Positions 16,777 to 34,940 of a DNA stretch of 64,000 bases are shown piece after piece (positions within the stretch are counted from its first letter, which is position 1; each line of letters opens with the position of its first letter). The translations under genes were made by a program, and so were the position numbers. The stretch is from Acidimicrobiales bacterium. Its GTDB lineage: Bacteria; Actinomycetota; Acidimicrobiia; Acidimicrobiales; Aldehydirespiratoraceae. Below the pieces are notes generated by a model. The model did not search any database. It saw only the letters and a list, made by a program, of their open reading frames with translations, and was not told where the DNA came from. The stretch lies in the NCBI GenBank assembly GCA_965117015.1, contig OZ220747.1, forward strand, positions 3,086,921 through 3,150,920, in the 5' to 3' direction.

Positions 16777-17547
16777 ATGAGACTCGAGGGAAAGGTGGCG
16801 CTGATCACCGGGACGGCCAGCGGGATCGGGCGGGCCACTGCGCTGCGTTTCGCTGAGGAGGGCGCCCGGGTGGTGGCGGCCGACATCGTCGAGGCCAACC
16901 ACGAGACGGTCGAGATAATTCGGGCGGCTGGCGGCGAGGCCACCGCGGTTCACGCCGACGTGTCCGACGACGCGGAGGTCGCGCTGGCCGTGAAGACCGC
17001 GGAGTCCACCTACGGGCAGTTGGACATCGCCTTCAACAACGCGGGGATCATGCTGGCCGACGACGCCGATGCCGTCGCCACCACCACCGAGACCATCGAC
17101 AAGACCCTGGCCGTCAACCTGAAGGGCGTGCTGTACGGCTGCCGCCATCAGATACCGGCCATGCGCCGGGCCGGAGGAGGCTCGATCATCAACACGGCGT
17201 CGTTCGTGGCGTCGGTGGGCGCGGCCACTCCCCAGATCGCCTACACCGCCTCCAAGGGCGCGGTGCTGTCGCTTACCCGCGAGCTGGCCGTGATCCACGC
17301 CCGGGAGAACATCCGAGTCAACGCCCTGTCGCCGGGTCCGTTGCGCACCGAACTGCTGATGTCGTACCTCGACACCGAGGAGAAGCGCCAACGGCGTCTG
17401 GTACACGTCCCCATGGGCCGCTTTGGCGAGGCCACTGAGATGGCCTCAGCCGCCCTGTTCCTGGCCTCCGACGACTCGTCGTACATGACCGGCGCCAACC
17501 TGCTGGTAGACGGCGGCCTGACCGCCGCCTACGTCACCCCCGAGTAG
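16777..17547 (+). CDS. SDR family oxidoreductase
   Basis: MRLEGKVALITGTASGIGRATA after RBS GAAGGAAGG. NNAG and YTASKGAV motifs are present. Confidence 0.85.
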   Translation: MRLEGKVALITGTASGIGRATALRFAEEGARVVAADIVEANHETVEIIRAAGGEATAVHADVSDDAEVALAVKTAESTYGQLDIAFNNAGIMLADDADAVATTTETIDKTLAVNLKGVLYGCRHQIPAMRRAGGGSIINTASFVASVGAATPQIAYTASKGAVLSLTRELAVIHARENIRVNALSPGPLRTELLMSYLDTEEKRQRRLVHVPMGRFGEATEMASAALFLASDDSSYMTGANLLVDGGLTAAYVTPE

Positions 17548-18658
17548 GCCGGGGCTCGCGCGGTAGGCCGAGGATGCGTTCGCCGATGATGTTGCGCATG
17601 ATGGCCGACGTGCCGCCCTGGATCGTGTAGGCGGGCGCGTAGCAAATGGCGGTGGCTACGGCGTCGCCGATGGTGGCGGCCGGGCCCAGCACCTGGGCCG
17701 CGAACTGGGCCACCCGCTGCTCGTGCTCGGTGCAGAACGCCTTGGTCCCCGCGCTGTAGTCGGCGGAGCCCTCGCCCAGCGCGCCCCGGTACACCATGAG
17801 CCGTCCCAGCCGGTAGCCGGTCTCGATGGCGGCGATCTCCTGGCGTGTCTGGGGATCGGCCAGATCGGCGTGCTCCAGGGCGAGCTCGTACAGGGGCCGG
17901 TTGGACACCAGCCGGTCGATGCCTCCCCGCTCGTAGCCAAGCTGGATCATGGTCTGCTTGAAGGCCCCGCCCTCGGTGCCGACCAGATTGTCGGCCGGCA
18001 CTCGCACGTCGGTGAAGAAGATCTCGCAGAAGTGCGAGTTGCCGACCATGTCGCGCACCGGCCGTACCTCGATGCCGTCGAGGCCCATCGGTACGATCAG
18101 CTCGCTGAGGCCCTTATGCGGCGGCCCTTCGCGGCTGGTGCGGCAGATCACGTAGCAGTATTCGGCGGTGGCCGCCCCGCTGGTCCATATCTTCTGGCCG
18201 TTGACGACATAGCAGTCGCCGTCACGGTCCGCTGACGTCTTCAGCGCAGCCAAGTCGGAGCCGGCGTCGGGCTCGCTCATCCCGATGCACCAGGACGCCT
18301 CCCCCGACAGCATCCCGGGCAGGTACTCGGCCTTCTGGGCATCGTTGCCGTAGGTGTAGATGGATGGACCCATCTGGCGGTCGGCGAACCAGCTGGCCGC
18401 GATGGGGGCGCCGGCGCTGATCATCTCCTCGGCCATGATGATGCGCTCGATGCCGGGCCGCCCTCCCCCGCCGTGCTCGGCCGGCCAGGTCATCCCGATG
18501 AAACCCTCGGCCGCCAGCACCCTGGAGAACTCCTTGGAGTGGCCGTTGATCCACGAGTCGCTCCACCGCCCGTAGTCGGCCACGCCCTGCTCGGCCACAG
18601 CCCGGGCCCGGGCCCGCAGCGCCTCCCACTCGGGGCGCATCGAGAAGTCGAGGCTCAC
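17534..18658 (-). CDS. acyl-CoA dehydrogenase family protein
   Basis: ACAD-like sequence (GMTWPAEHGG, WCIGMSEPDAGSD, YTIQGGTSAIMRNIIGERILGLP). Start set at the GTG giving VSLDFSMRPEW; the ATG at 18640 is an alternative. Confidence 0.8.
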   Translation of the reverse strand: MSLDFSMRPEWEALRARARAVAEQGVADYGRWSDSWINGHSKEFSRVLAAEGFIGMTWPAEHGGGGRPGIERIIMAEEMISAGAPIAASWFADRQMGPSIYTYGNDAQKAEYLPGMLSGEASWCIGMSEPDAGSDLAALKTSADRDGDCYVVNGQKIWTSGAATAEYCYVICRTSREGPPHKGLSELIVPMGLDGIEVRPVRDMVGNSHFCEIFFTDVRVPADNLVGTEGGAFKQTMIQLGYERGGIDRLVSNRPLYELALEHADLADPQTRQEIAAIETGYRLGRLMVYRGALGEGSADYSAGTKAFCTEHEQRVAQFAAQVLGPAATIGDAVATAICYAPAYTIQGGTSAIMRNIIGERILGLPREPRPTRG

Positions 18659-18775
18659 AACAGCCTGTATATCCGCGAAGCGGTGCCCGAGAACAGATCC
18701 TCCTGCTCGCCGTGGTTGTAGCCGGCGGCCATGATCTGCAGCGCGTTCCACAGCACCGGGTACGGCAGCGTTGCG

Positions 18776-19774
18776 TCAAGCGCTGCGGCGGGCCCTCCGG
18801 GCCCACGCGTCCAGTCCGACCGCGACCAGTATCACGACACCCTGGATGACCCGCTGCCAGATGGGGTCGACCTGGTGGATGTTGAAGCCGTTGACCATGA
18901 ACGCCAGGAACAGCGCTCCCATTACGGTGCGCCACACCGCGCCCTCACCGCCGGCGATGGACGTGCCCCCGACAACTATCGCCGCGATGACGCTGAAGAC
19001 GTAGCTGAAGTCGTCCGACGGCAGTGCACTGCCCGACCTGGCCGAGTTGAGGGTGCCGGCCAGACCCGCAGCCGCTCCCGACATGGCGAAGGTGAGCGCA
19101 GTGACCATCCGGGTGTTGACGCCCGACAGGTGGGCGGCCTCGGAGTTGCCGCCGGTGGCGTAGATGTAGCGGCCGAACTTGGTGCGACTGAGCACGAACC
19201 AGGCCAGCGCCACGATGAGCACGCTGAACCATGTGGCCGTGGTTAGGCCGAAGACTCGCTCCCGCGCCAGGCTGGACCAGTCCCGCGTGTCGGGGCGCAG
19301 GATCGACCGGTCGCTTATAAGGAAGCCCGCCCCGAACCAGATGAACGACGTCGCCAGGGTGACGATGAACGATCCGATCCGGGCGTAGGCCACCAGCGCG
19401 CCGTTCAGCACACCCGCCACCACGCCCAGCAATAGCCCGGCCACCACGCCCACCACGATGGAATCAGTGGCGTTGAGTGCCTGGATGGCGACGATCGACG
19501 AGGTGATGAACACCGCGGCCTGGGAGATGTCGAAGCCGCCGCCAATGATGGTCAGCGTCGCGAACGAGGCACCGATCAGGATGAGAGACTGCTGGTCCAG
19601 GACGTTGCGCAGGTTGGCGCCCCGAAGGAACCCGTCGGTGGTGGCTGCCAGGAACAGGAAGAGCACCAACGTCACCCACAGGATCCCGTACCGGGTGAGA
19701 AGGACTCGCAGCCGCCGGGTGCGCGGGCCCGCGGCTCCCGCCGATAGCCGGGTCAGGAGGGTGAGGGCGGTCAT
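18776..19774 (-). CDS. sugar ABC transporter permease (CUT2, RbsC-like)
   Basis: Trimmed to the ATG giving MTALTLLTRLSAGAAG. Membrane protein with RbsC/AraH-like features (TIIGGGFDISQAAV, ATGGNSEAAHLSGV). Confidence 0.85.
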   Translation of the reverse strand: MTALTLLTRLSAGAAGPRTRRLRVLLTRYGILWVTLVLFLFLAATTDGFLRGANLRNVLDQQSLILIGASFATLTIIGGGFDISQAAVFITSSIVAIQALNATDSIVVGVVAGLLLGVVAGVLNGALVAYARIGSFIVTLATSFIWFGAGFLISDRSILRPDTRDWSSLARERVFGLTTATWFSVLIVALAWFVLSRTKFGRYIYATGGNSEAAHLSGVNTRMVTALTFAMSGAAAGLAGTLNSARSGSALPSDDFSYVFSVIAAIVVGGTSIAGGEGAVWRTVMGALFLAFMVNGFNIHQVDPIWQRVIQGVVILVAVGLDAWARRARRSA

Positions 19775-19782
19775 GGCGTCTC

Positions 19783-21297
19783 CTAGGTCGGTTGAGGTGC
19801 AGCCGCGAAGGCGGCTTCGAGGATGCGTGACTCGGTGAGGTCGTCGCCGGCGAGTTCGGCGACGACGGCCTGGTCGCGCACTACCAGCACCCGGTGGGCC
19901 AGCCCGATGACCTCGTCGAGTTCCGAGGACACGAACAGCACGGCCAGGCCGGCGGCCGCAGCTCCCGCGATCAGGTCGTAGATCGCTCGCTTGGCGCCGA
20001 TGTCGACTCCTCGGGTCGGCTCGTCGGCGAGCAGCAGCCGTCGAGAGTCGACGAACCATCGGGCAAAGAGGCTCTTCTGCTGGTTGCCGCCGGACAGTTC
20101 CAGCACGGACTGCTCGATCGAGGCCGACCTGATGTCGACGCTCACAGCCGCTTCCGCGGCAGCCTGGGCCTCCTGGCCCGGCCGCATGCAGCCGATCCGG
20201 CTGATGCGTCCCAGATGCGGCAGGGTGACATTGTCACGTATCGATCGACTCAGCAGCAGGCCCTGGTCCTTGCGGGACTCAGGGATCAGGCCCACTCCGG
20301 CGCGAATGGCGTCGCGGGTGGAGCGCCGCTTGATCGGCCGGCCACACACCAGGACTTCGCCGCCGGCGCGGCGATCGGCTCCGTACACCGCCCTTAGGAT
20401 CTCGGAGCGCCCCGAGCCGACCAGCCCGGCCAGCCCGACGATCTCACCGGCTCGCACCTGGAGACTGACCGCAGGATCGTCGCCGGCCCGCCGCATCTCC
20501 TTGACGTCGAGCACCACCGGGGCATCCGGGGGCGGAGGTGCCTTGGCCGGGAAGTTCGTGTCGAGCGATCGGCCGGTCATGGCCTCCACCAGGCTCCGCT
20601 CGGTCTCGGAAGCCGCGGGCCGGCTGCTGACCAGTGCCCCGTCGCGCATGACCGAGACGCGGTGGGACACTTGCAGCACCTGGTCGAGGAAATGCGACAC
20701 CAAGATGACCGTGGTCCCGTCCTGCGACAGCCGGGACACGATCGCCAACAGCGTCCCGGCCTCCTCGGTGGACAGACGGGCGGTCGGCTCGTCCATGACG
20801 ATCAGATCGGCTCGTCGCCCCAGGGCCCGGAGGATCTCTACCTTCTGTTGCTCGGCGACCGGTAGGTCGGCGACCAGCACCTCGCCGGGCACCTCGATGC
20901 CGGTCCGCTCAACCAGCGCGTCGAAACGCCGGTGCTGCACGCGGGTGCGTACCACCCCGCTGAACGAGGGCTCGTCGCCTAGGAACACGTTGTCGATGAC
21001 GCTGCGGCCCGGCACGAGCGACAGCTCCTGGGCCACAACGGTGATGCCGTGGTCAAGGGCGTCGCGCGGGGACCTGAAGGCCACCGGCTCGCCGTCGAGC
21101 AGGACCCTGCCGCGGTCGGGCCGGTGGACTCCGGCGACGATCTTCCCGACCGTCGATTTTCCGGCGCCGTTCTCACCGACGATGGCGTGAACGGTGCCAC
21201 GGTGGACTGTCAGCGAGAGATCGCGAACAGCCCGGGTCGCTCCAAACGACTTGGAGACGTTGTCGAGTTCTATGTGGGGCGCGCTCAGCCGTCCCAT
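19783..21297 (-). CDS. sugar ABC transporter ATP-binding protein with tandem NBDs (RbsA-like)
   Basis: Starts MGRLSAPHIELDNVSKSFG. First NBD: Walker A GENGAGKST and Walker B IVMDEPTARL. Second NBD: GLVGSGRS, signature LSGGNQQK and LLLADEPTRGVD. Confidence 0.85.
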   Translation of the reverse strand: MGRLSAPHIELDNVSKSFGATRAVRDLSLTVHRGTVHAIVGENGAGKSTVGKIVAGVHRPDRGRVLLDGEPVAFRSPRDALDHGITVVAQELSLVPGRSVIDNVFLGDEPSFSGVVRTRVQHRRFDALVERTGIEVPGEVLVADLPVAEQQKVEILRALGRRADLIVMDEPTARLSTEEAGTLLAIVSRLSQDGTTVILVSHFLDQVLQVSHRVSVMRDGALVSSRPAASETERSLVEAMTGRSLDTNFPAKAPPPPDAPVVLDVKEMRRAGDDPAVSLQVRAGEIVGLAGLVGSGRSEILRAVYGADRRAGGEVLVCGRPIKRRSTRDAIRAGVGLIPESRKDQGLLLSRSIRDNVTLPHLGRISRIGCMRPGQEAQAAAEAAVSVDIRSASIEQSVLELSGGNQQKSLFARWFVDSRRLLLADEPTRGVDIGAKRAIYDLIAGAAAAGLAVLFVSSELDEVIGLAHRVLVVRDQAVVAELAGDDLTESRILEAAFAAAPQPT

Positions 21298-22439
21298 TGC
21301 CCGGTGAACTTGTCCACGTTCGCAGCGGTCACCAATCCGTTGTCGGTGACGTCGGCTAGAGGGTTGATGCCCCCGGAGTGGACCCCTTCGGTCAGGGCCA
21401 GGATCATGGCGTCCATGGCGTTGGCACCCTCGCTGCCGGGAGCGCCGTAGATCACGCCGTACCACCGACCCTCGGCCACCGCCTGAAGCCCGGTGATCGA
21501 GCCACCGAGGCCGATCAGCTTGACGTCGGTCATTCCTTCGTCGTTCAGGACGATCTCGACGCCTTGGATCGACTGGTCGGCCCCGATCACGACATCGAAC
21601 TCCGGGGCCGCGATCAGGATGTCCTGCATGGCGTTGATGCCGCCCTCGGGTCCCAGGTACTGGCCCTCGCCATCGGCGACGATGGTCACGCTGGGATTGC
21701 GGGCGAGCACGTTGTCGAAGCCCTCCTTCAAGGCAACGTCGAGCGGGAAACCCTTGATGCCATACAGATACACGACCTGGCACGGGTCGAGCGACCCGCA
21801 GGCCTCCACGGTGAGCTCGCCCATGCGCTCGCCGTTCTCGACGGGAGGGGCCAGCGACGACGCCGCTATCCCGTCCACCTGAGGGGCGCCCTCGGCCAGG
21901 TCGTCGCCGACCACGGTGTTGAGCACGACCACTTCGATGCCCTGGGCCAGTGCGTCCTCGATGTCGGGGATGAGCCCAGGCCCGTTGACCGCGGCCACGA
22001 TCACGCCGTCGTACTCGCCGGAGGCGATGACGTCCTGAAGCTGGGCGGTCTGCGCCTGCGGGTCGAACGCCGCGTCGAACTCGATCATGTCGATGCCGTT
22101 CTCGTCGGCGATCCGCTGCATCTGGGCACGGGAGCTCGCGTACCAGGTGTTGGCTGAGCTGGCCGACAGGTAGGCGATCTGGAGCCCTTCGGTCGACACG
22201 GCCGGTGCCTCGGCCGGCTCAATCGCCGCAGTCTCGGTCGGCTCAGCCTCAGCGGGTTCGGGCTCGGCCGGTTCTGTGGCATCCGGTTCGGCAGGCTCGG
22301 CGGTTACCGCCGAGGTTGCGGAGGGTGCGGTCTCCGCTTGGTCGGCTGGCTCTTCGTCGCCGCAGGCCGCGGCGATCAGCCCTAGGCAGAGCACGACGGC
22401 CAGTAGCCGAAGCGGCTTGATCCTCAATGTTGTGGTCAT
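21285..22439 (-). CDS. ABC transporter substrate-binding lipoprotein (periplasmic-binding-protein type I, sugar-like) with acidic linker
   Basis: 384-aa ORF. Signal peptide with lipobox LIAAAC, then about 70 aa of A/E/P/T-rich linker, then an RbsB-like body (LQIAYLSASSANTW). Confidence 0.8.
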   Translation of the reverse strand: MTTTLRIKPLRLLAVVLCLGLIAAACGDEEPADQAETAPSATSAVTAEPAEPDATEPAEPEPAEAEPTETAAIEPAEAPAVSTEGLQIAYLSASSANTWYASSRAQMQRIADENGIDMIEFDAAFDPQAQTAQLQDVIASGEYDGVIVAAVNGPGLIPDIEDALAQGIEVVVLNTVVGDDLAEGAPQVDGIAASSLAPPVENGERMGELTVEACGSLDPCQVVYLYGIKGFPLDVALKEGFDNVLARNPSVTIVADGEGQYLGPEGGINAMQDILIAAPEFDVVIGADQSIQGVEIVLNDEGMTDVKLIGLGGSITGLQAVAEGRWYGVIYGAPGSEGANAMDAMILALTEGVHSGGINPLADVTDNGLVTAANVDKFTGQWDG

Positions 22440-22515: not shown

Positions 22516-24069
22516 TCATCGCAACGGTCCGGCCGCTTTGACCCGCAGCCTCAGGACGTTGTCCTTGAGATAGGCCATGGTGAGTTCCTCGAGCGCCACG
22601 ACCTCGGTGAGTTCCGGGTCGGCACCCAACGCAATGGCCGAGCCCACCGCGGCGTCCTTGGCCCGTCCGGTGGCCTCGTCGCGGCCTCCGGGGCCCAAGG
22701 TCAGCAGTTGGTCAACCTCGGCGCTGATGGAGGCGATGGCCGCGCCGATGGCGTTGGCCACATCGAAATGGTCGGGCCGGTCGATAGAGCTGACCCCGGC
22801 CAGCGAGTCGGGCAGCAGCGTGCTCCCTCCACCGACCGCGATGACGGGCTGGTCGGAGCGGGTCAGTTTCATCCGGTCGATGGCGTCCTCGAAGATCCGG
22901 TCGACGCGGGCGACGGCTCCCATGGCCACCGTCTCGCCGACAGAGTCCACCGGGTGGGAGCCCATGGCGGCCCGGCCGACCCGCACTGCTACGTCGCTCA
23001 ACGTGAGGGTGGAGCCGCCGAAGCACAGAGCCTCGGAGGTCAGGTGGTACCCGATACTGTCGGGGCCTACGGTCACCTTGCCATCGGAGTTGCGGATCCG
23101 GCTGCCGCCTCCAAGGGCCACCGACAGCAGATCTGGCATCCGGAAGTTGGTGCGGACTCCGCCGATCTCCACCGGGATCGACGACTCCCGGGGGAAGCCC
23201 GATGCCAGAACCCCGACATCGGTAGAGGTGCCTCCGACGTCTACGACGATGGCGTTCTGTAGACCCGTCAGGTACCCGGCGCCTCTCATGGAGTTGGCCG
23301 GGCCGCTTCCGATGGTCAGCACCGGGAAGCCGAGCACGCGGTCGAGGGCCATCAGCGTCCCGTCGTTCTGTGCGAAGTACGGCGTGGCCTTCAAGCCAGC
23401 GTTGTCCATGGCGGTGCTGAGGCCGGCCACGATGTCGTGAGCGACCCGGCGCAGGGCGGCGTTGAGCACGCAGGCGTTCTCCCGCTCGAGCACTCCGATC
23501 GAACCGACATCGCAGCTCAGCGATACGGGAACTTGCTCACCGAATACCTCGGTCACGATGTCGGCTGCCCGATGCTCGTGCGCGGCCGATACGGGCGCGA
23601 ACACGCTGGTGATGGCAACGCTGTCGGGCCGCTCGGGCAGACTGTCCAGGAAGCGGAACAAGCCGTCGGCGTCGAACGGGACCTGCTCCCGACCGTCGAA
23701 CTCGTACCCGCCGTCGACAACGGTCTCCCCCACCGACACGGCCCGGCGAAGCTCGGCGGGCCATGTGGCCAGCGGTGGGACGGCGCGCGTCGCCGGTCCC
23801 CCGATCCTTACCACCGCCACCGAGTTGAGACCGCGACGCTCGAGGATGGCGTTGGTGGCGTGGGTGGTTCCCAGCATCACCCGCGACACCGAGTCGGGAG
23901 GTACCCCGCCCTTCGCCAGAACCGAGCCGACCGCGGCAACCAGGCCCTCGTTGATGTCCGCGGTGGTCGGAGTCTTGACCTTGGCCGCCACCCGCAAAGC
24001 GTCATCGAGGAGCACCGCGTCGGTGTTGGTTCCACCCACGTCGACACCGATCCGGTACTCACCCGGCAT
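22516..24069 (-). CDS. hydantoinase/oxoprolinase family protein (HyuA-like)
   Basis: 517-aa ORF. N-terminus YRIGVDVGGTNTDAVLLDD and internal VVDVGGTSTDVG are the ASKHA-fold phosphate-binding motifs of hydantoinase A / oxoprolinase proteins. Confidence 0.8.
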   Translation of the reverse strand: MPGEYRIGVDVGGTNTDAVLLDDALRVAAKVKTPTTADINEGLVAAVGSVLAKGGVPPDSVSRVMLGTTHATNAILERRGLNSVAVVRIGGPATRAVPPLATWPAELRRAVSVGETVVDGGYEFDGREQVPFDADGLFRFLDSLPERPDSVAITSVFAPVSAAHEHRAADIVTEVFGEQVPVSLSCDVGSIGVLERENACVLNAALRRVAHDIVAGLSTAMDNAGLKATPYFAQNDGTLMALDRVLGFPVLTIGSGPANSMRGAGYLTGLQNAIVVDVGGTSTDVGVLASGFPRESSIPVEIGGVRTNFRMPDLLSVALGGGSRIRNSDGKVTVGPDSIGYHLTSEALCFGGSTLTLSDVAVRVGRAAMGSHPVDSVGETVAMGAVARVDRIFEDAIDRMKLTRSDQPVIAVGGGSTLLPDSLAGVSSIDRPDHFDVANAIGAAIASISAEVDQLLTLGPGGRDEATGRAKDAAVGSAIALGADPELTEVVALEELTMAYLKDNVLRLRVKAAGPLR

Positions 24070-25153
24070 TGATGTCCTCCACGGGGCGGTAGTCGAAGTC
24101 GTAGTTGAAGGCCCTGGGTCCGGCCACAGCCAGACCTTCAGGAGTGCGCCAGAGGCTGTCTATGGGCAGGCCCACGATGGAGACGAGCTGCCCGTAGCGC
24201 AGCAGCTCGGTGACGATGGGTCGGGCGGTGTGCAGGTCGACGGCGGTGATGATGTCGGGGACGCTGGCCCGCACTCTCCCGTCCTCGATCAATACGGTGT
24301 TCTCGTTCTGGAACTCGAGGCGAGCCACTCGCCCGCTGCATTCACCGATCCCCTCGACTACCGCGGATCCCCGGGCGAAGCCCTCGGTGGTCTGGCGGTC
24401 GACATCGACGACTTTGCCCTCGATGAGCGGGTAGCCGTCGAGGTGCTCGCACATGGCTGTCACGGGCTCGTCGGAGACTTCGAGCATCACTCGACCCGCC
24501 GTGATGGCGCGGGTTATCGAGTTCCTGACGGTGGCCCGCCGGGCAGTACCGACCGTCATCGGGTACAGGCAGATGGTGGCTTCGGCCCCCATGGTCGTGC
24601 ATACCGAGCGGGCGATGTCCTCGGCCCAGACCGCAGTGGTGGTGGTCAAGGTGACGACGTTGCCCCGCTCATCGGTCATCACTGCGGGCGTGGCCGGCAC
24701 TCCTGCTAGGTGCGCCGTGGTCATCTGGAGCTCGGGGAACGCCCGACCCATGAGATCGGCATCTACAACCGGGAGGTTGGCGCGTGCCGCCCACGAGAAG
24801 GGCACGACACCGTTCAGTCCCCCGAGCTCCAGACAACAGATGGCCGCCACTTGCATGCCGGTCTCGTTCTCGACGGCCTCCTGCAGGCGCTGCGCCTCGG
24901 TGCCGGCCCCGAACTTCTCGACCATGACCGTGGTCGCGCCCATCATGCAGATGGGCAGGATCAGGCGGTCGTCGTCCAACTCGTCCAGGTCGAGCAGTTG
25001 CACCGGCCCGGAGTGGGCGATGGCCTGCGACGCCATGTGATGGCCCAGCCGGGGATCACCCCCGCCGCCGGCTCCGAAGATCGCCGCGCCGAGGGAGAGC
25101 CACTCCAACTCTTGGGCCCCGATCTCTAGCACTGGAAGCGACCGTAGTCCCAC
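24059..25153 (-). CDS. DUF917 domain protein (paralogue 1)
   Basis: Contains LSLGAAIFGAGGGGDP and other DUF917-like features. Overlaps the hydantoinase start by 11 nt. Start placed at GTG 25153, because the ATG at 25228 lies inside the operator palindrome 6 nt from the divergent regulator start. Start uncertain. Confidence 0.7.
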   Translation of the reverse strand: MGLRSLPVLEIGAQELEWLSLGAAIFGAGGGGDPRLGHHMASQAIAHSGPVQLLDLDELDDDRLILPICMMGATTVMVEKFGAGTEAQRLQEAVENETGMQVAAICCLELGGLNGVVPFSWAARANLPVVDADLMGRAFPELQMTTAHLAGVPATPAVMTDERGNVVTLTTTTAVWAEDIARSVCTTMGAEATICLYPMTVGTARRATVRNSITRAITAGRVMLEVSDEPVTAMCEHLDGYPLIEGKVVDVDRQTTEGFARGSAVVEGIGECSGRVARLEFQNENTVLIEDGRVRASVPDIITAVDLHTARPIVTELLRYGQLVSIVGLPIDSLWRTPEGLAVAGPRAFNYDFDYRPVEDINAG

Positions 25154-25178
25154 TGGGACCCCGTGGAGCGGCTGTATT

Positions 25179-25223
25179 TGTGCATTAGTCAAGAGAGCTG
25201 GGCGATCTTGTGCATTATGCACA
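25179..25223. promoter_or_regulatory. operator candidates in a divergent promoter: perfect palindrome TGTGCAT-T-ATGCACA plus an upstream half-site
   Basis: TGTGCATTATGCACA at 25209-25223 (7-1-7 perfect inverted repeat). TGTGCATTA is repeated at 25179-25187, exactly 30 nt upstream. This is a low-GC island between the DUF917 and PucR-type genes. Confidence 0.6.
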
Positions 25224-25234
25224 TACATGCCAGG

Positions 25235-26719
25235 ATGTGGGCGGTGCTGTTGAGGGACCTCGTCGATCGCGATCCGTCAATCGCGGTCCTGCACGCTGCT
25301 CCGGCCGCGCTGAACCGTCCGCTGGCGTCGGTCCAGATGGTCGACGAGTACCCGGGCGTCGCGGCCGCCGGGCCCGGAGCGCTGGTGGTGCTTGCCCCGC
25401 ACCTGTCTGCCGACGCGGCGTCGTACCGATTCGACCTGGCCCTGGGAGAGCTGCCCGACGGGGTTGCCGGCCTGGCCCTGTCAGGCTCAGCGGGAGAGCC
25501 GTCGGCCACCGCGTTGCGTACCGCGGAGAACCGGGGTATCGCGCTGATCGCTCTGGATCCGGCCACCGATGTGGCCGCTCTCGCGGTGCGGGTACGGGAC
25601 GTGAGCCTCGGCGGGACCCGGGAGGCCGTGACCCGGCTGGAGACCATCTGCGCGATCGTTGACGCCTACGAATCGCGGGGCGAGCACGTCGACTCGCTGC
25701 TGGCCCGCCTGACGACGGAGCTCGAATGCGACATCAGCATCGAGACCGAGCCCGGAGACTCCCCCGCGGTCGCCCTGGACGCGGGCACGGGACAGCCGAC
25801 CTTCCTGGTGGCAGACGCCGAGATGTCTGACATCGTCGTGCGGACCGCGCTGGTCTATGCCGGCCGGGCCATCGAGCTGATCCTGCGTCGCGACTTCGAG
25901 GCCGCCAACTTCCCGGTGCAGTCGAGAGGCGACCTGCTCAACGAGTTCCTTCTCAGCGATGCGGCCACCGGCGCCGATGCCCTTGCCCGGCTCCGGCGCA
26001 GCGGGTTTCCGGTTGACGGTCACCACCTCGCGGCTCGGGTCGACCTGCACAATGTCGCCTCTGGGGTGAACGATGTCACCGACCGGTACCGCCGACAGCT
26101 GCAAGCGGCGCGGTTGCTCAGCGACCGCGTCTCCCAGGGTGACCCCTCCTGGACCGCGGCCGGCACCAACACCTCGGTGCTGCTGGTGATGAGCGAGCCA
26201 CGACGCGATGGTCGGCACTCAGCGATCCTCCAGGACCGGCTCCAGTCCGGCCTGGCCCGCCTCAACGCGCTTGACCCGGGCCTGGAGTGGGCGGCGGGCG
26301 TCGGCACCGTTCAGAGCGGCGCCGGCGGGCTGCGGAACACCGTCGACGAGGCGACGTCGGCGTTGCGGGCCGCCCAGGCCAACAACGCCTACAACCGCCT
26401 CCACCACTTCGATCGGCTCGGGTTCGCCAGGGCTTTGATCCGGTGGTACGAGATCGACGACGTCAGGGCAACGATCGACGAGATCCTGGCTCCCCTGGCC
26501 CGGCTGGGGGACAAGAACGCCGCCGAGGCGATCAACACCCTGCGCGCCTATCTGGACTCGGGCCAGAGCATTAAGCAGACCGCTCACCAGTTGCGCGTGC
26601 ACCGCAACACAGTGCGCTACCGCATCAAGCGCATCCTCGACGTGCTCGAAGTCGACCTCACCGATCCCGAACAGCGCCTCTTGGTGGAACTCGGCACTCG
26701 GGCAATGCGCATCTCATAA
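25235..26719 (+). CDS. PucR/CdaR family transcriptional regulator
   Basis: Trimmed to MWAVLLRDLVDRDPS. C-terminal HTH TLRAYLDSGQSIKQTAHQLRVHRNTVRYRIKRI is characteristic of the PucR C-terminal domain. Confidence 0.8.
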   Translation: MWAVLLRDLVDRDPSIAVLHAAPAALNRPLASVQMVDEYPGVAAAGPGALVVLAPHLSADAASYRFDLALGELPDGVAGLALSGSAGEPSATALRTAENRGIALIALDPATDVAALAVRVRDVSLGGTREAVTRLETICAIVDAYESRGEHVDSLLARLTTELECDISIETEPGDSPAVALDAGTGQPTFLVADAEMSDIVVRTALVYAGRAIELILRRDFEAANFPVQSRGDLLNEFLLSDAATGADALARLRRSGFPVDGHHLAARVDLHNVASGVNDVTDRYRRQLQAARLLSDRVSQGDPSWTAAGTNTSVLLVMSEPRRDGRHSAILQDRLQSGLARLNALDPGLEWAAGVGTVQSGAGGLRNTVDEATSALRAAQANNAYNRLHHFDRLGFARALIRWYEIDDVRATIDEILAPLARLGDKNAAEAINTLRAYLDSGQSIKQTAHQLRVHRNTVRYRIKRILDVLEVDLTDPEQRLLVELGTRAMRIS

Positions 26720-26740: not shown

Positions 26741-27517
26741 CTAGACGGTCAGCGAGGAGGCGAGCAGGCCTCGGGTGTATGGATGTTCGGGCTTGGCGAA
26801 CAGCTCCTCGACCGGCTGCAGTTCCACGATCTCACCGTCGCGCATGACCGCGATGCGATCGGCTAGGTGGCGGGCGACTCCAAGGTCGTGGGTGATGAAC
26901 AGGTAGGTGAGGCCGTGATCGGCCTTGAGTTGCCGCAGCAGGTTCAGGACACCGGCCTGCACCGACACGTCGAGAGCGGAGGTCGGCTCGTCGAAGATGA
27001 CCATCGCGGGCTCCAGCACCAGTGCCCGGGCGAGCACGGCCCGCTGGGCCTGGCCTCCGCTCAGCTCGTGCGGGAGGCGGTGGCGTATCGCTGCGCTGAG
27101 ATCGAGCGACGCGATCATCTCGTCGGCTCGCTGCCTGCACTGAGCCCGGCTCAATGCGGTGTGGACCCGCAGCGGCTCCTCGATCTGGGCTCCCACCGGC
27201 TGGCGGGGGCTGAGTGCGAGCAGTGGGTTCTGGGCCACCATCTGGACCGGGACGCGAGCCCTGCGGCTGGCTCGCCCCCGCAGGCTGGCGAGCTCGGTGC
27301 CGTCATATGTGATGCTGCCGCGGCTGGGTCGGACCAGGCCGACGACAGCCTCGGCGAGAGTCGACTTGCCCGCGCCCGACTCCCCCACCACAGCCAGCGT
27401 CTCGCCCCTGCCCACATCCAGGTCAAGGCCGTCGAACACCGTGACCGGATGCCTTCGGCCTCCACCCCGCGCGGAGAACTCGACCCGCAGGCCTCGTATG
27501 GAGAGCAGCGCGGTCAT
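26741..27517 (-). CDS. peptide/opine/nickel-type ABC transporter ATP-binding protein (DppF/OppF-like)
   Basis: 258-aa ORF. Walker A GESGAGKST, signature LSGGQAQR, Walker B MVIFDEPTSALD. Confidence 0.85.
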   Translation of the reverse strand: MTALLSIRGLRVEFSARGGGRRHPVTVFDGLDLDVGRGETLAVVGESGAGKSTLAEAVVGLVRPSRGSITYDGTELASLRGRASRRARVPVQMVAQNPLLALSPRQPVGAQIEEPLRVHTALSRAQCRQRADEMIASLDLSAAIRHRLPHELSGGQAQRAVLARALVLEPAMVIFDEPTSALDVSVQAGVLNLLRQLKADHGLTYLFITHDLGVARHLADRIAVMRDGEIVELQPVEELFAKPEHPYTRGLLASSLTV

Positions 27518-28476
27518 CTCGGGGGCCCCGGACGACCGTCAGGGGCAGTGCCATCAGAACCCACCAGGACGCAAGCCGCGTGGTGGCCAGGCTGCACGAG
27601 GCGCGCCTCGGGCTGGCCCGCCCAGCATGCGTCGCGGACGCGGGGGCAACGGGGTGCGAAGGCGCAGCCGTTGATGGCACTCCGGCCGTCAGGTACGAGC
27701 CCGGGGATCGAGGCCAGCTGCTGCCCCACCGTCTCAGGTCGGGGGATGGACTCGAGCAGAGCCTGCGTGTAGGGGTGGCTCGGCGCGGCCAGCACCTGAT
27801 CGGCCCGGCCGTCCTCCGCGACCTGGCCGGCGTAGAGCACGACGATGCGCTCGCACACCCGCCGCAGCACGGCTAGGTCGTGGCTGATGAGCACCACCGC
27901 CAGCCCGGTGCGGTCCCGGAGCTCCTCGATGAGGTCGAGCACCTGCAGCTGCGTGGTCACGTCGAGGGCGGTGGTGGGCTCGTCGGCGATCAGCAGCCGG
28001 GGCGACTGGGCCAGCGCCAGCGCGATCACAGCCCGCTGGCTCATCCCTCCGGAGAGTTCGTGCGGGTAGGAGGCGAGGAGCCGGGGTGCATCCGGCAGTC
28101 CGACCTGTTCGAGCAGCTCACCCAACACTGCGGGGTCGTCGGTCCCGGTTACGAGCCGGAGTTGCTGGCCGATGGTGAACACCGGGTTCAGCGAGGCGCC
28201 CGGGTTCTGGTAGATGAGCGCGGCCACGGATTGCAGCGAGCCGTCCATGGCCATGGGTTCGCCGCCGAAGTGCAGGCTGCCCTCCACGCGGGCGGTGTCG
28301 GGCAGCAGTCCCAGCAACGCGCGGAACAGCACGCTCTTGCCGCAGCCGGACTCGCCGGCCACCCCCACGATCTCGCCGTCGCCCACGTGAAGCGACACGC
28401 CCCTCACGGCCTGCACCGGCCCGGTCGGCGGGTTGAAGGTGACGTGCAGCCCCTCAGCCTCCAGCAGGCTGCTCAT
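27514..28476 (-). CDS. peptide/opine/nickel-type ABC transporter ATP-binding protein (DppD/OppD-like)
   Basis: Starts MSSLLEAEGLHVTF. Motifs GESGCGKS, LSGGMSQR, LLIADEPTTALD and a C-terminal Cys-rich tail. ATGA overlaps on both sides. Confidence 0.85.
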   Translation of the reverse strand: MSSLLEAEGLHVTFNPPTGPVQAVRGVSLHVGDGEIVGVAGESGCGKSVLFRALLGLLPDTARVEGSLHFGGEPMAMDGSLQSVAALIYQNPGASLNPVFTIGQQLRLVTGTDDPAVLGELLEQVGLPDAPRLLASYPHELSGGMSQRAVIALALAQSPRLLIADEPTTALDVTTQLQVLDLIEELRDRTGLAVVLISHDLAVLRRVCERIVVLYAGQVAEDGRADQVLAAPSHPYTQALLESIPRPETVGQQLASIPGLVPDGRSAINGCAFAPRCPRVRDACWAGQPEARLVQPGHHAACVLVGSDGTAPDGRPGPPR

Positions 28477-29402
28477 TCGCGGTCTTCCCGTGTGCGAGGG
28501 TCGGTGACGTCGCGGATCACGTCTCCCATCAGGTTGAAGGCCACCGCCGCGATCACGATGGCCGCTCCCGCGAAGCCGGCGATCCACCACTGCCCGGAGA
28601 GCACGTACTGGCGGCCTTCGGAGATCATCACGCCCCAGTCGGCGGTCGGCGGGCGTGGGCCGAGCCCCACGAAGCTCAGGCCGGCTGCAGTCAGCACGGC
28701 TGCGCCCAGATCAGCGGTGGCCTGCACCCAGACGGGTGCCATGGCGTTGGGAATGAGATGCACGGCGAGGATGCGCCGGTGGGGTATGCCGATGGCGCGC
28801 ACCGCCTTGATGAATGGCCGTTCGCGCAGGCTGAGGACCTGAGCGCGCACCAAGCGCGCGTACCACGGCCACCAAGAGACCGCTATGGCGATGATGGTGT
28901 TGCGGACGCTCGCTCCTAGCGCAGCCGCTACCAGCACCGCCAGCAACAACGGCGGGAAGGCCAGGAACGTGTCGGTGATCCGCATGAGGACCTCGTCGAC
29001 CCATCGCCCGAAGTAGCCCGCCACTGCGCCCACCACCACGCCGACGACCACCGACAGCACTACGACCCCGACCGCCACCACCAGGGCGGTGCGAGCCCCG
29101 AAGAGCAGCCGGGCCAGCACGTCGCGCCCCAGATCGTCGGTGCCCAACCAGTGTGACCAACTGGGGCCCTGCAGACGGATGGACAGGTCCGGAACGCCGC
29201 GGCCGGCATCGGCGTAGGGAGTGAGCCACGGAGCGAACACCGCGGCCACCCCAAAGAGCACGGCCACCACCGCGGCCGCCATCCCCAGCCAGCTTCTCCG
29301 GTAGTACCAGAACGCGCTGCCCGGCGCCGCGAAGCGGCTCGGCTTGCCGGCCACGCCCGAGAGGCCGAAACGACCCGCCTTTGGAGGTGCTTCGGTGCCC
29401 AT
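28473..29402 (-). CDS. ABC transporter permease (DppC/OppC-like)
   Basis: Starts MGTEAPPKAGRFG. Membrane protein with a DppC-like conserved loop (FIKAVRAIGIPHRRILAVHLIPN). Confidence 0.85.
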   Translation of the reverse strand: MGTEAPPKAGRFGLSGVAGKPSRFAAPGSAFWYYRRSWLGMAAAVVAVLFGVAAVFAPWLTPYADAGRGVPDLSIRLQGPSWSHWLGTDDLGRDVLARLLFGARTALVVAVGVVVLSVVVGVVVGAVAGYFGRWVDEVLMRITDTFLAFPPLLLAVLVAAALGASVRNTIIAIAVSWWPWYARLVRAQVLSLRERPFIKAVRAIGIPHRRILAVHLIPNAMAPVWVQATADLGAAVLTAAGLSFVGLGPRPPTADWGVMISEGRQYVLSGQWWIAGFAGAAIVIAAVAFNLMGDVIRDVTDPRTREDRE

Positions 29403-30484
29403 CAGTCCAGAGCCACCCTGGGATCGAGCCGGGCCTGCAGCAGGTCGAGGCCAAGGTTGACCAGCACGTAGATCACGGTGACGGCCAGCGCCGCCGCGGT
29501 GATGACCGGGAAGTCCAGCCGCACGACCGCGTCGGTGAGGTACTTGCCCAGCCCCGGCCATGCGAACACCGCTTCCACCAGGAACGCACTCGACACCGAG
29601 TAGGCAAACGTGAGACCCAGCACGGTCAGGGTGGGCAGCAGCGCGTTCTTCAGCGCTAGGCGCCGGAGCACCGTGCGCCTGGGTATCTGGGCCACGGTGG
29701 CGGCCTCTATGTAGTCGCTGCCGAGCACCTCCAGCATCGATCCCCGGATCAGCCGGATGGTGAGCCCCAGTGGGTAGGCGGTCATCACGGCCACCGGCAT
29801 GGCGAGATGCACGACGACATCCGCGAAGTTCGACCAGCTCCCCGATAGCGCGGAGTCGATCAGGAAGAAGCCGGTCGGCTCGTTGAAGCTGGTGGATGAG
29901 TCGGTGCGGCCCGCCAGTGGCAGCCAGCCCAGCCGGGAGGCGAACAGCAGTTGGAGCAGCAGCGCCGACCAGAAGACCGGCAGCGACACACCCGTCACGG
30001 CGAACAGCCGGATGGAGGTGTCCCCCAACCGGCTCCGGCGGGCCGCGGCGGCCACCCCGGCCGGGACGCCCACCGCCATGGCCAACGCGGTCGCAGCCAG
30101 CGCTAGCTCCAGGGTGGCCGGCAGGAACCGGCGGAGATCCTCGGCGATCGGACGCTTGGTGGCGAACGACACGCCGAGATCGCCCCGGGCAAGCTGACCC
30201 ACGTAGGACGCGTACTGCGACAGCACGGGGGCATCGAGGTTCAGATCCCGGCGCACCTGCTCGACCTGCTCGGGCCGGGCCCTGACTCCGGCGTACAGCG
30301 CGGCGGGATCCGATGGCACCAGCCTGGCCACCACGAAGGTGACGGTGATCACGCCGAGGATCACCAGCAGGCTGGTGACCACCCGGCGCAGCAGGTAGCG
30401 GGATCTGATCAGCCCGGTGCGCTGCTGAGATGGAGCGCTGCTGGGTGTCTGCTCGGTCAAGCGTTGGCTTGGATCAGCTTCCAC
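29402..30484 (-). CDS. ABC transporter permease (DppB/OppB-like)
   Basis: 360-aa ORF. YLLRRVVTSLLVILGVITVTF is the typical DppB N-terminus. An alternative TTG start at 30460 would form a TTGA overlap with the upstream stop. Confidence 0.8.
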   Translation of the reverse strand: MEADPSQRLTEQTPSSAPSQQRTGLIRSRYLLRRVVTSLLVILGVITVTFVVARLVPSDPAALYAGVRARPEQVEQVRRDLNLDAPVLSQYASYVGQLARGDLGVSFATKRPIAEDLRRFLPATLELALAATALAMAVGVPAGVAAAARRSRLGDTSIRLFAVTGVSLPVFWSALLLQLLFASRLGWLPLAGRTDSSTSFNEPTGFFLIDSALSGSWSNFADVVVHLAMPVAVMTAYPLGLTIRLIRGSMLEVLGSDYIEAATVAQIPRRTVLRRLALKNALLPTLTVLGLTFAYSVSSAFLVEAVFAWPGLGKYLTDAVVRLDFPVITAAALAVTVIYVLVNLGLDLLQARLDPRVALD

Positions 30485-33073: not shown

Positions 33074-33127
33074 CGATCCGGGCGGGCTGGTGGGCGCGGC
33101 GATGCTCGGCGTTGGCCTGCGGTCGCG

Positions 33128-34828: not shown

Positions 34829-34854
34829 TGGGATCTCCTCTCCAGGATGTGACC

Positions 34855-34940
34855 GGTGTGGTAAAAAACATTTAGCATATATCGCTAGTTACTGCAAATC
34901 TTTTACCATAATGCCGATATATCTGTATGATCTTGCAAGA
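34855..34940. promoter_or_regulatory. AT-rich divergent control region between the SBP operon and the Lrp-type regulator gene
   Basis: Conspicuously low-GC stretch (AAAAAACATTTAGCATATATCGCTAGTTACTGCAAATCTTTTACCATAATGCCGATATATCTGTATGATCTTGCAAG) in an otherwise GC-rich window. Contains the palindrome CTTGCAAG. Confidence 0.45.

What the first reader, a model, noticed from the sequence alone, without database searches (positions are those of the whole stretch)
22516..25153. Translationally coupled DUF917 + hydantoinase-like pair heading a CUT2-type importer operon
DUF917 paralogue 1 (24059..25153) overlaps the start of a HyuA-like hydantoinase/oxoprolinase-family gene by 11 nt. After a 76-nt gap come an acid-linker binding lipoprotein, a tandem-NBD ATPase and a permease (18776..22439), all on the minus strand. 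A PucR-type regulator is transcribed divergently. DUF917 has no well-established general function. My unverified recollection is that some members have been linked to thiohydantoin-type ring chemistry. Pairing with a hydantoinase-fold ATPase, and with a regulator family associated with purine/ureide catabolism, suggests uptake and ATP-dependent opening of an unidentified cyclic amide or ureide. A second DUF917 paralogue sits in the neighbouring operon (31913..33073).
Basis: inference. Interest (0 to 1): 0.65.

Follow-up and report, generated by a model that had tools for sequence, protein, structure and literature searches.

The report
Orphan ATPase–DUF917 enzyme pair with importer
This operon encodes an importer plus a two-protein enzyme (a short hydantoinase-type ATPase and a DUF917 protein) that are always found together in bacteria and archaea and are fused into one protein in some animals and protists; its reaction has never been determined, and it most likely uses ATP to break open an imported nitrogen-containing ring compound.

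Summary
DUF917_1 (24059..25132) overlaps by 11 nt the ATG of a 517-aa short HyuA-type ATPase (22516..24069). A 76-nt gap follows, then a CUT2 importer. A PucR regulator is transcribed divergently.

The pairing is obligate in both directions:
- 75 of 80 genome loci fetched with DUF917 carry the short HyuA on the same strand. 66 lie within 60 nt and 48 overlap.
- Of 80 metagenome loci fetched with the short HyuA, none of the 74 informative ones lacks DUF917.
- Natural HyuA-short–DUF917 fusions of 916-1067 aa exist in starfish, abalone and protists.

Neither protein is an orthologue of a characterised enzyme. The thiohydantoin-desulfurase models score 92 and 73 bits against cut-offs of 450 and 440. 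There is no HyuB in the window. The DUF917 fold matches only the unannotated PDB entry 2o3i.

Genes near the pair elsewhere include NCS1 permeases, hydantoin racemases, XDH-type hydroxylases, canonical HyuAB, M19 dipeptidases and Opp-type importers. These point to catabolism of a cyclic amide or ureide.

My best reading is a two-subunit ATP-dependent ring-opening enzyme in which DUF917 takes the place of HyuB. The substrate is unknown. This is a solid orphan-enzyme lead, not a surprise.

The parts
25244..26719 (+). PucR-family transcriptional regulator, 491 aa from GTG 25244. The longest ORF starts at 25163.
   Evidence: Pfam HTH_30 (74 bits) and GGDEF_2. The start is placed by alignment with the 491-aa gene calls in relatives L081 and L082. 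A divergent PucR occurs at many related loci.
25133..25243 (.). 111-bp divergent regulatory region. It holds the exact direct repeat TTGTGCATTA (25178-25187 and 25208-25217) and the perfect palindrome TGTGCATAATGCACA (25209-25223). These are a candidate PucR operator.
   Evidence: Repeats. The TGTGCA-N5-(G/T)(C/T)ACAAG element is conserved in L081, L082 and the 61%-identity locus L001. No Rfam match and no sigma-70 consensus match. Operator function is inferred.
24059..25132 (-). DUF917_1 (S-Me-THD family), 357 aa. It is the proposed catalytic subunit of the pair.
   Evidence: Pfam PF06032 and PF20906. NCBIfam desulfurase equivalogs score far below their cut-offs. AF2 model pLDDT 93.7. The fold matches only PDB 2o3i, TM 0.82. 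The start is set from 357-aa homologues.
22516..24069 (-). Short HyuA-type ASKHA ATPase, 517 aa. It has no Hydant_A_C domain, and no HyuB partner is present in the window. Its start overlaps the DUF917_1 stop by 11 nt, and a GGAGGA ribosome-binding site precedes it.
   Evidence: Pfam Hydant_A_N and Hydantoinase_A. The motifs DVGGTNTD, DxGGTSxD and GGG are invariant in 50 homologues. AF2 pLDDT 89.8. Foldseek TMq 0.72-0.77 to acetone carboxylase beta, N-methylhydantoinase, acetophenone carboxylase and caprolactamase alpha. No HyuB in the window. Overlap read directly.
21285..22439 (-). CUT2-type solute-binding lipoprotein (Peripla_BP_4) with a lipobox and an acidic Pro/Glu-rich linker. The ligand is unknown.
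   Evidence: The best PDB relatives are sugar binders at only E of about 1e-12. The best NCBIfam hit is YtfQ at 39.5 bits against a cut-off of 510. Orthologues at 50-67% identity sit in the same position in L001, L087 and L088.
19783..21297 (-). Tandem-NBD ABC ATPase (CUT2 type), 504 aa. It overlaps the SBP gene by 13 nt.
   Evidence: Two ABC_tran domains. AraG-, YtfR- and XylG-like hits, all below their cut-offs. Start read. The same 13-nt overlap occurs in L081.
18776..19774 (-). CUT2 permease (BPD_transp_2), 332 aa. The ATG is preceded by GGAG, 8 nt after the ATPase stop.
   Evidence: Start read. A 332-aa gene call is present in L081.
31913..33073 (-). DUF917_2, a paralogue from a HyuA-less subfamily. 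It lies in the neighbouring operon 26741..34828, whose gene order is SBP_bac_5, DUF917_2, PLP decarboxylase, DppB, DppC, DppD, DppF. A divergent AsnC/Lrp regulator is at 35051..35545.
   Evidence: The same two-operon layout occurs in relative L086. The 92% relative L081 has the PucR module without this operon beside it, so a functional link is possible but not required.

Best explanation
The five-gene operon and its divergent PucR regulator form an inducible uptake-and-first-step catabolic module for a small N-heterocyclic cyclic amide or ureide.

The CUT2 importer brings the compound into the cell. Inside, the short HyuA-type ATPase and DUF917_1 act as one two-subunit enzyme.
- The ASKHA subunit spends ATP to activate a ring carbonyl as an O-phospho-imidate or isourea. 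HyuA-type subunits do this in 5-oxoprolinase, N-methylhydantoinase, caprolactamase and acetone carboxylase.
- DUF917_1 takes the place of HyuB. It carries out the substitution or hydrolysis at that activated sp2 carbon and so opens the ring. Its characterised relatives hydrolytically replace S or S-methyl at C2 of thiohydantoins, which is the same kind of chemistry with a different leaving group.

What is shown: the gene anatomy, the obligate pairing, the natural fusions, intact ATP-binding motifs, and the absence of HyuB.

What is inferred: complex formation, ATP coupling, the division of labour between the two subunits, ring opening, the substrate class, and PucR control through the intergenic palindrome.
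For: 1. The pairing is obligate in both directions.
- 75 of 80 genome loci from seven phyla, including Thaumarchaeota, have the short HyuA on the same strand. 66 lie within 60 nt and 48 overlap. Both gene orders occur.
- Starting from the short HyuA, none of 74 informative metagenome loci lacks DUF917.

2. Natural fusions of HyuA-short (N-terminal) with DUF917 (C-terminal) exist in eukaryotes. The starfish fusion aligns end to end with the window ATPase at 42% identity.

3. The ATPase has invariant ASKHA nucleotide-binding motifs and the fold of the HyuA-type subunits of ATP-dependent lactamases and carboxylases. It lacks HyuB and the Hydant_A_C domain.

4. DUF917 belongs to the family whose named members are thiohydantoin desulfurases. 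Its core motifs (GGGGD, E102, D124xD126xxGR, N276-E277, P292-D293) are shared across subfamilies.

5. The paired clade has extra conserved charged residues that the HyuA-less clade lacks: K73, R156, R246, E155, E273.

6. Genes near the pair elsewhere fit N-heterocycle catabolism: NCS1 permeases (16 loci), hydantoin racemases, XDH-type hydroxylases, luciferase-like monooxygenases, canonical HyuA/HyuB, M19 dipeptidases and PucR.

7. The six-gene module is conserved as a unit at 61-92% identity while its flanks change.
Against: - No biochemical data exist for any paired member.
- By my recollection, which I could not confirm in the searchable library, the characterised DUF917 enzymes work alone and without ATP.
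- A whole DUF917 subfamily, including DUF917_2 in this window, has no HyuA.
- Fusion and translational coupling fit two consecutive reactions just as well as one coupled reaction.
- The DUF917 fold shows no similarity to HyuB or to any hydrolase of known mechanism.
- The importer is of a type best known for sugars, and its ligand could not be inferred.
- The operon carries no enzyme for the product of ring opening.
Confidence: 0.45

Rival explanations
1. The two proteins catalyse two consecutive but mechanistically independent steps. DUF917_1 is an ATP-independent hydrolase like the thiohydantoin desulfurases. It would remove or exchange an exocyclic or ring substituent of the imported heterocycle. 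The short HyuA then acts on the product alone, either by ATP-dependent ring opening or by phosphorylation.
For: The named DUF917 relatives are stand-alone desulfurases (plus my own recollection). A HyuA-less DUF917 subfamily exists. Up to five DUF917 paralogues can accompany a single HyuA. That pattern fits interchangeable front-end enzymes feeding one ATPase. Fusion and coupling also occur between consecutive pathway enzymes.
Against: Every characterised HyuA-type protein needs a second catalytic subunit, and none other is present. The strictly reciprocal pairing, with none of 74 informative loci an exception, and the repeated fusions are tighter than is usual for merely consecutive enzymes.
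Confidence: 0.22
2. This is a sugar or sugar-derivative catabolic module. The CUT2 system imports a carbohydrate-like compound. The ASKHA protein is a kinase for one of its hydroxyl groups. DUF917 then processes the phosphorylated product, for example as an isomerase, lyase or phosphatase-like enzyme.
For: The SBP, ATPase and permease are of the CUT2 type, and their nearest named relatives handle arabinose, ribose, xylose and galactofuranose. Sugar kinases are weaker structural neighbours of the ATPase. Faint ROK hits appear in some homologues.
Against: All transporter hits are far below the equivalog cut-offs. Orthologous pairs elsewhere use Opp-type or NCS1 transporters, not sugar systems. 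The genes near CUT2-linked relatives are canonical HyuA/HyuB and M19 dipeptidase, not sugar enzymes. The top structural matches are HyuA subunits at E of about 1e-29, against about 1e-6 for sugar kinases.
Confidence: 0.1
3. The short HyuA is not a catalytic partner. It is an ATP-dependent activase or chaperone that keeps DUF917 active, as GlmL/MutL does for glutamate mutase and as BcrAD/HgdC-type activators do for their enzymes.
For: Weak Pfam hits to MutL (PF13941) and BcrAD_BadFG (PF01869). Activators of 2-hydroxyacyl-CoA dehydratase and benzoyl-CoA reductase appear among the structural neighbours. One ATPase can serve several DUF917 paralogues.
Against: Those hits are sub-threshold and reflect the shared ASKHA fold. 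DUF917 has no conserved cysteine cluster or cofactor motif that would need reactivation. The 1:1 fusions in eukaryotes are unusual for a catalytic activase.
Confidence: 0.08
4. The pair carries out an ATP-dependent reaction that is not hydrolytic. Examples are carboxylation, as in the acetone and acetophenone carboxylases, or amination or thiolation of an activated carbonyl. It would then be a modifying or biosynthetic enzyme rather than a catabolic one.
For: The best structural matches of the ATPase are the carboxylase subunits. Phospho-activation of a carbonyl can be resolved by nucleophiles other than water. The fusions in animals and protists need not be catabolic.
Against: The bacterial context is an importer plus an inducible regulator, which is typical of catabolism. 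Associated racemases, dipeptidases and hydroxylases point to degradation.
Confidence: 0.1

Closest known systems
Thiohydantoin desulfurase and S-methyl thiohydantoin desulfurase (NCBIfam NF058529 and NF058532; Pfam S-Me-THD_N/C, formerly DUF917). By my recollection these belong to bacterial ergothioneine catabolism.
   Same: Same two-domain family and fold. The core motifs GGGGD, DxDxxGR, NE and PD are shared. The chemistry is probably related: substitution at an sp2 carbon of a five-membered cyclic ureide.
   Different: The scores are 92 and 73 bits against cut-offs of 450 and 440, so this is not an orthologue. This clade is always paired or fused with an ATPase. It carries clade-specific charged residues. 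There are no ergothioneine-pathway genes nearby.
HyuA/HyuB-type ATP-dependent enzymes: N-methylhydantoinase, 5-oxoprolinase, caprolactamase, and acetone and acetophenone carboxylases.
   Same: The ATPase has the HyuA N-terminal and central domains, invariant ASKHA motifs and the same fold, with TMq 0.72-0.77. The probable logic is also shared: ATP-dependent activation of a stable carbonyl.
   Different: It is 517 aa rather than about 690-730 aa and has no Hydant_A_C domain. No HyuB is present in the window. The equivalog scores are 81 and 61 bits against cut-offs of 1000 and 1500. The partner is a protein of an unrelated, otherwise unique fold. Some relatives carry canonical HyuA/HyuB in addition to the pair, so the two systems are not redundant.
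Non-CDPS cyclodipeptide-oxidase-like gene clusters (Nat Commun 2024;15:3574, PMC11055893).
   Same: That paper reports DUF917, hydantoin racemases, peptide ABC importers and peptidases enriched around CDO-like nitroreductases, and states that DUF917 is uncharacterised. I found nitroreductase plus DUF6092 next to DUF917 in several loci.
   Different: The window has no CDO-like gene, racemase or peptidase. The Anaerolineales cluster seen here (L085) carries a DUF917 of the HyuA-less type-2 subfamily. The paper's suggestion that DUF917 proteins are hydantoinases rests on database annotation, not on experiment.
Bacillus subtilis PucR purine-catabolism regulon and other PucR/CdaR-family activators.
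   Same: A divergent regulator with the PucR C-terminal HTH and a GGDEF-like domain.
   Different: It does not reach any characterised equivalog (AdeR, CdaR or PmfR models). No purine-catabolic genes are nearby. The family regulates many unrelated pathways.

Membership tests
DUF917 / S-Me-THD family (Pfam PF06032 + PF20906) | Both domains score above Pfam's gathering threshold | tested here: met
   185.6 and 208.1 bits against a cut-off of 27.
DUF917 / S-Me-THD family (Pfam PF06032 + PF20906) | Fold of the only solved member, PDB 2o3i | tested here: met
   AF2 model with pLDDT 93.7. Foldseek E 1e-22 and TM 0.82 to 2o3i. The next hit has E 0.15.
S-methyl thiohydantoin desulfurase (NCBIfam NF058532, equivalog) | Whole-protein score of at least 450 bits | tested here: not met
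   92.4 bits.
Thiohydantoin desulfurase (NCBIfam NF058529, equivalog) | Whole-protein score of at least 440 bits | tested here: not met
   73.2 bits.
HyuA-type ASKHA subunit (hydantoinase/oxoprolinase family) | Hydant_A_N and Hydantoinase_A domains, with conserved phosphate-1, phosphate-2 and adenosine motifs | tested here: met
   117 and 123 bits. D10-D17, D277-D284 and G413-G415 are invariant in 50 homologues. The fold matches 5svc_B, 9h03_A, 5l9w and 6yra_A.
Canonical HyuA/HyuB ATP-dependent hydantoinase, oxoprolinase, caprolactamase or carboxylase | A HyuB-type (PF02538) catalytic partner, separate or fused | tested here: not met
   tblastn with a HyuB from L024 finds nothing in the 64-kb window. 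The gene next to the ATPase is DUF917.
Canonical HyuA/HyuB ATP-dependent hydantoinase, oxoprolinase, caprolactamase or carboxylase | Full-length HyuA of about 690 aa with Hydant_A_C, and an equivalog-level score | tested here: not met
   517 aa with only positions 1-174 of 291 of the Hydantoinase_A profile matched. CapA scores 81 bits against 1000, and ApcC 61 bits against 1500.
Canonical HyuA/HyuB ATP-dependent hydantoinase, oxoprolinase, caprolactamase or carboxylase | ATP hydrolysis coupled to substrate conversion | not testable with these tools
   This needs enzyme assays.
CUT2 ABC importer | Peripla_BP_4 binding protein, a single-polypeptide tandem-NBD ATPase, and a BPD_transp_2 permease | tested here: met
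   Lipobox and linker.
CUT2 ABC importer | Monosaccharide specificity (equivalog of a known sugar system) | tested here: inconclusive
   All hits are far below their cut-offs: YtfQ 39.5 against 510, AraG 464 against 689, AraH 192 against 378. PDB relatives reach only E 1e-12.
PucR-family regulator | C-terminal PucR HTH (HTH_30) with a GGDEF-like middle domain | tested here: met
   74 and 35 bits.
Obligate HyuA-short + DUF917 two-gene unit (defined here) | Adjacent, same-strand and usually overlapping genes. The association holds in both directions, and fusions exist. | tested here: met
   11-nt overlap. 75 of 80 loci in the forward test and none of 74 informative loci an exception in the reverse test. 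Fusions.

The most novel reading that the evidence does not exclude
HyuA-short plus DUF917 is a previously unrecognised class of ATP-dependent ring-processing enzyme. A catalytic subunit of unique fold replaces HyuB. The class occurs in bacteria and archaea and, as single-chain fusions, in protists and marine animals. The physiological substrates may be cyclic dipeptides (2,5-diketopiperazines) or related chiral cyclic amides. That would make it the first ATP-driven cyclodipeptide hydrolase. It would also explain three observations: the recurrent peptide-type importers, the racemases, epimerases and dipeptidases nearby, and the arrays of DUF917 paralogues around a single ATPase.
Probability: 0.2. 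Interest if true: 0.75.

Novelty: new variant of a known kind. Interest (0 to 1): 0.55.

Why it matters
DUF917 forms a large family: 3711 clusters at 50% identity with E up to 1e-3. Only the thiohydantoin-desulfurase branches have names. The ATPase-coupled branch studied here has no known reaction.

This branch is an obligate two-protein unit across bacterial phyla and Thaumarchaeota. It occurs in cultured and clinically relevant genera, including Clostridioides difficile, Lacticaseibacillus, Paenibacillus and Streptomyces. It is also a single fused gene in starfish and abalone.

Working out the reaction would:
- assign function to thousands of genes;
- probably add a new solution to the problem of opening stable cyclic amides;
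- identify a nutrient that sponge-associated and soil actinobacteria import with dedicated transporters.

The window offers a minimal, self-contained version for experiments: regulator, operator, enzyme pair and importer.

Tried and rejected
- Literature. Ten full-text searches covered DUF917, PF06032, COG3535/K09703, thiohydantoin desulfurase, S-methyl-ergothioneine, ergothioneine catabolism and N-methylhydantoinase cryo-EM. None found a paper characterising the pair. The only mentions are gene lists and the CDO paper, which states that DUF917 is uncharacterised. I could not retrieve the primary papers behind the Pfam and NCBIfam desulfurase names.
- PDB by sequence and by profile found only 2o3i for DUF917.
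- Fold search was used to test whether DUF917 resembles HyuB or a metal-dependent hydantoinase. It does not.
- The Rfam scan of 17000-36000 for a riboswitch that might name the ligand found nothing.
- The promoter and terminator consensus scan was uninformative.
- The acyl-CoA dehydrogenase at 17534..18751 lies 24 nt downstream on the same strand. I rejected it as part of the module because it is absent from relatives L081, L001, L087 and L088.
Homologue lengths and alignment favour 25132 and 25244.
- A heterocomplex prediction could not be run.
- One look-up (P0276) returned no contig.
- One Pfam call failed on bad coordinates.


Full report
**Anatomy**

The window has about 68% G+C. Its nearest named relatives are sponge-associated Acidimicrobiia (Candidatus Poriferisodalis, 75% identity for the ATPase) and Acidimicrobiia MAGs (61-63% identity).

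Five genes on the minus strand form one tightly packed unit:
- DUF917_1, 24059..25132.
- A 517-aa short HyuA-type protein, 22516..24069.
- A Peripla_BP_4 lipoprotein, 21285..22439.
- A tandem-NBD ABC ATPase, 19783..21297.
- A BPD_transp_2 permease, 18776..19774.

These assignments rest.

The junctions are as follows:
- The HyuA ATG lies inside the end of DUF917_1. The two genes overlap by 11 nt, and a GGAGGA sits 5 nt upstream of the ATG.
- The gap between HyuA and the SBP gene is 76 nt.
- The SBP and ATPase genes overlap by 13 nt.
- The permease ATG follows a GGAG, 8 nt after the ATPase stop.

A PucR-family regulator is divergent. Homologue lengths and gene calls in 81-92% identical relatives place the DUF917 start at GTG 25132 and the PucR start at GTG 25244.

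The resulting 111-bp intergenic region holds two exact copies of TTGTGCATTA, 30 nt apart, and a perfect palindrome TGTGCATAATGCACA. The palindromic element is conserved in a locus only 61% identical at protein level. It is a candidate operator. No riboswitch was found.

**Is the pairing real?**

Yes, and it is close to obligate.
- An alignment of DUF917_1 relatives retrieved 80 genome loci. They come from Actinomycetota, Chloroflexota, Bacillota, Pseudomonadota, Deinococcota, Thermotogota and Thaumarchaeota.
- 75 of these loci have a short HyuA homologue of about 515-530 aa on the same strand. 66 lie within 60 nt and 48 overlap by 1-17 nt. Both gene orders occur: 55 have DUF917 first and 20 have HyuA first.
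- Four of the five exceptions have a truncated contig or a frameshifted HyuA.
- In the reverse test, 80 metagenome loci were fetched with the short HyuA. 69 have an adjacent same-strand DUF917 and 5 more have one within 1 kb. The 6 without DUF917 are all cut within 1.1 kb of the gene. So none of 74 informative loci lacks DUF917.

An exhaustive search of 1.84 billion cluster representatives found 3711 DUF917 clusters. Among the best 150 there are at least eight long proteins of 916-1067 aa. These have Hydant_A_N and Hydantoinase_A at the N-terminus and both DUF917 domains at the C-terminus. They come from the starfish Acanthaster planci, abalone (Haliotis), and the protists Ancoracysta and Artemidia. 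The starfish protein aligns with the window ATPase from residue 5 to 516 at 42% identity. The fused ATPase therefore belongs to the same short subfamily.

**Is either protein a known enzyme?**

No.
- DUF917_1 belongs to the family Pfam now calls S-Me-THD. It scores 92 and 73 bits on the NCBIfam equivalogs for S-methyl thiohydantoin desulfurase and thiohydantoin desulfurase, whose cut-offs are 450 and 440.
- Sequence and profile searches of the PDB find only 2o3i, a structural-genomics protein with no annotation.
- A confident model (pLDDT 93.7) matches only 2o3i, with TM 0.82. The next hit has E 0.15. The fold is therefore unrelated to HyuB or to metal-dependent hydantoinases.
- The ATPase model (pLDDT 89.8) matches the HyuA-type subunits of acetone carboxylase, N-methylhydantoinase, acetophenone carboxylase and caprolactamase, with TMq 0.72-0.77.
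- The ASKHA phosphate-1, phosphate-2 and adenosine motifs are invariant in 50 homologues.
- The ATPase is about 170 residues shorter than canonical HyuA and lacks Hydant_A_C. It falls far below every equivalog cut-off.
- No HyuB exists in the 64-kb window.

**Context elsewhere**

The six-gene module (PucR, then DUF917, HyuA and the three CUT2 genes) recurs at 61-92% identity with different flanks: L081, L086, L001, L087, L088 and L096. The acyl-CoA dehydrogenase 24 nt downstream in the window is not conserved with it.

Relatives of the CUT2-linked clade carry extra genes:
- L087 has a second DUF917–HyuA pair after the permease and an M19 dipeptidase.
- L088 and L056 carry canonical HyuA plus HyuB, together with an M19 dipeptidase.

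In more distant orthologues the transporter changes:
- Opp/Dpp-type systems in 26 loci.
- NCS1 cytosine/hydantoin-type permeases in 16 loci, which agrees with the cytosine permease, DUF917 and hydantoinase triplets listed for L. rhamnosus and C. difficile in PMC7513527 and PMC12915319.

Recurrent accessory genes are:
- Asp/Glu/hydantoin racemases.
- An MR/MLE-type enolase, in the thaumarchaeal locus.
- XDH-type molybdenum hydroxylases with their FAD subunits.
- Luciferase-like monooxygenases.
- CDO-like nitroreductase plus DUF6092.
- SDRs.
- PucR or TetR regulators.

23 of the 80 loci hold two to five DUF917 paralogues around one ATPase.

**Interpretation**

The obligate pairing, the fusions and the intact ATP site argue that the two proteins are one functional unit. 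The family logic of HyuA-type subunits is ATP-dependent activation of a stable carbonyl, with the chemistry completed in a partner subunit. This is established knowledge for 5-oxoprolinase, N-methylhydantoinase, caprolactamase and acetone carboxylase.

The named DUF917 relatives perform hydrolytic substitution at C2 of a thiohydantoin ring. The neighbourhood is rich in enzymes and transporters for N-heterocycles and for chiral N-substituted amino acids or dipeptides.

The best-supported mechanism is therefore ATP-dependent opening of a cyclic amide or ureide, with DUF917 in the role of HyuB (confidence about 0.45).

The rivals cannot be excluded:
- Two consecutive but independent steps.
- Sugar kinase chemistry.
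- An activase role for the ATPase.
- Non-hydrolytic chemistry such as carboxylation.

Residues conserved only in the paired clade (K73, E155, R156, R246, E273, Q275, Y313, Q315) are candidates for binding a phospho-intermediate or for the subunit interface. Their position in space was not examined.

The substrate of this CUT2-linked version is unknown. The SBP is only remotely related to sugar binders. Diketopiperazines or hydantoin-like compounds are reasonable candidates, no more.

**Second paralogue**

DUF917_2 (31913..33073) belongs to a separate, HyuA-less subfamily. It sits between an SBP_bac_5 gene and a group II PLP decarboxylase in an Opp-type operon under a divergent AsnC/Lrp regulator. 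The same two-operon arrangement occurs in relative L086. It is absent from the 92% relative L081. In an Anaerolineales MAG the same subfamily lies in a cluster with two racemases, two NicX/M29-like proteins, a nitroreductase and DUF6092. That is the cluster type described in PMC11055893.

**Verdict**

The feature is an instance of a widespread, obligate and biochemically orphan enzyme pair. It is best filed as a new variant of the HyuA-type ATP-dependent enzymes, not as a member of the HyuA/HyuB or thiohydantoin-desulfurase families. Interest is moderate to good, at 0.55. It is a well-defined and testable orphan with reach into eukaryotes. Its existence as a domain pair is already visible in databases, and nothing here is mechanistically proven.

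Noticed in passing
window 26741..35545: Neighbouring operon with gene order SBP_bac_5, DUF917_2, group II PLP decarboxylase (DABA-decarboxylase-like, far below its cut-off), DppB, DppC, DppD, DppF. A divergent AsnC/Lrp regulator is at 35051..35545. DUF917_2 overlaps the decarboxylase start by 8 nt and has no HyuA of its own. The same layout next to the PucR module occurs in relative L086.
   Followed up: partly
L085:3486-13075: An Anaerolineales MAG carries a DUF917 of the type-2 (HyuA-less) subfamily. It lies in an Opp-type operon with two Asp/Glu/hydantoin racemases, two NicX/M29-like proteins, a nitroreductase and DUF6092. This is the non-CDPS cyclodipeptide-oxidase-like cluster type described in PMC11055893.
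   Followed up: partly
P0433, P0492, P0412, P0416, P0491 (not in the window): Single-chain HyuA-short–DUF917 fusions of 916-1067 aa are encoded in animal genomes (Acanthaster planci, with three isoforms on a 2.9-Mb scaffold, and Haliotis species) and in protist transcriptomes. All are annotated as uncharacterised.
   Followed up: partly
L058, L069, L035, L040 (Chloroflexota loci): Arrays of four or five DUF917 paralogues in a row surround a single short HyuA and sit next to Opp-type importers. In L069 a sulfatase is also present.
   Followed up: no
L087:9001-19071; L088:9001-19107; L056:7555-19732: In CUT2-linked relatives the importer is followed by further genes. L087 has a second DUF917–HyuA pair. 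L088 and L056 have canonical HyuA plus HyuB. A Peptidase_M19 dipeptidase is nearby in all three. The window has none of these extras.
   Followed up: partly
L011, L013, L016, L051, L007 (marine and soil actinobacterial loci): The pair is immediately followed or preceded by a luciferase-like monooxygenase and a three-subunit XDH/CoxLMS-type molybdenum hydroxylase. L011 also has a creatinase/prolidase-like M24 peptidase.
   Followed up: partly
window 17534..18751: An acyl-CoA dehydrogenase gene (pimeloyl-CoA dehydrogenase-like, below its cut-off) starts 24 nt after the permease stop on the same strand, with no terminator-like site between them. It is not conserved with the module in relatives, so co-transcription here may be incidental.
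   Followed up: partly
window 35598..38183 and 41071..43503: The longest ORF for a Rieske ring-hydroxylating oxygenase alpha subunit is 861 aa, but the Rieske domain starts only at residue 461, so the true start is probably much further in. A catalase-peroxidase-like gene (two peroxidase domains) follows at 41071..43503.
   Followed up: no
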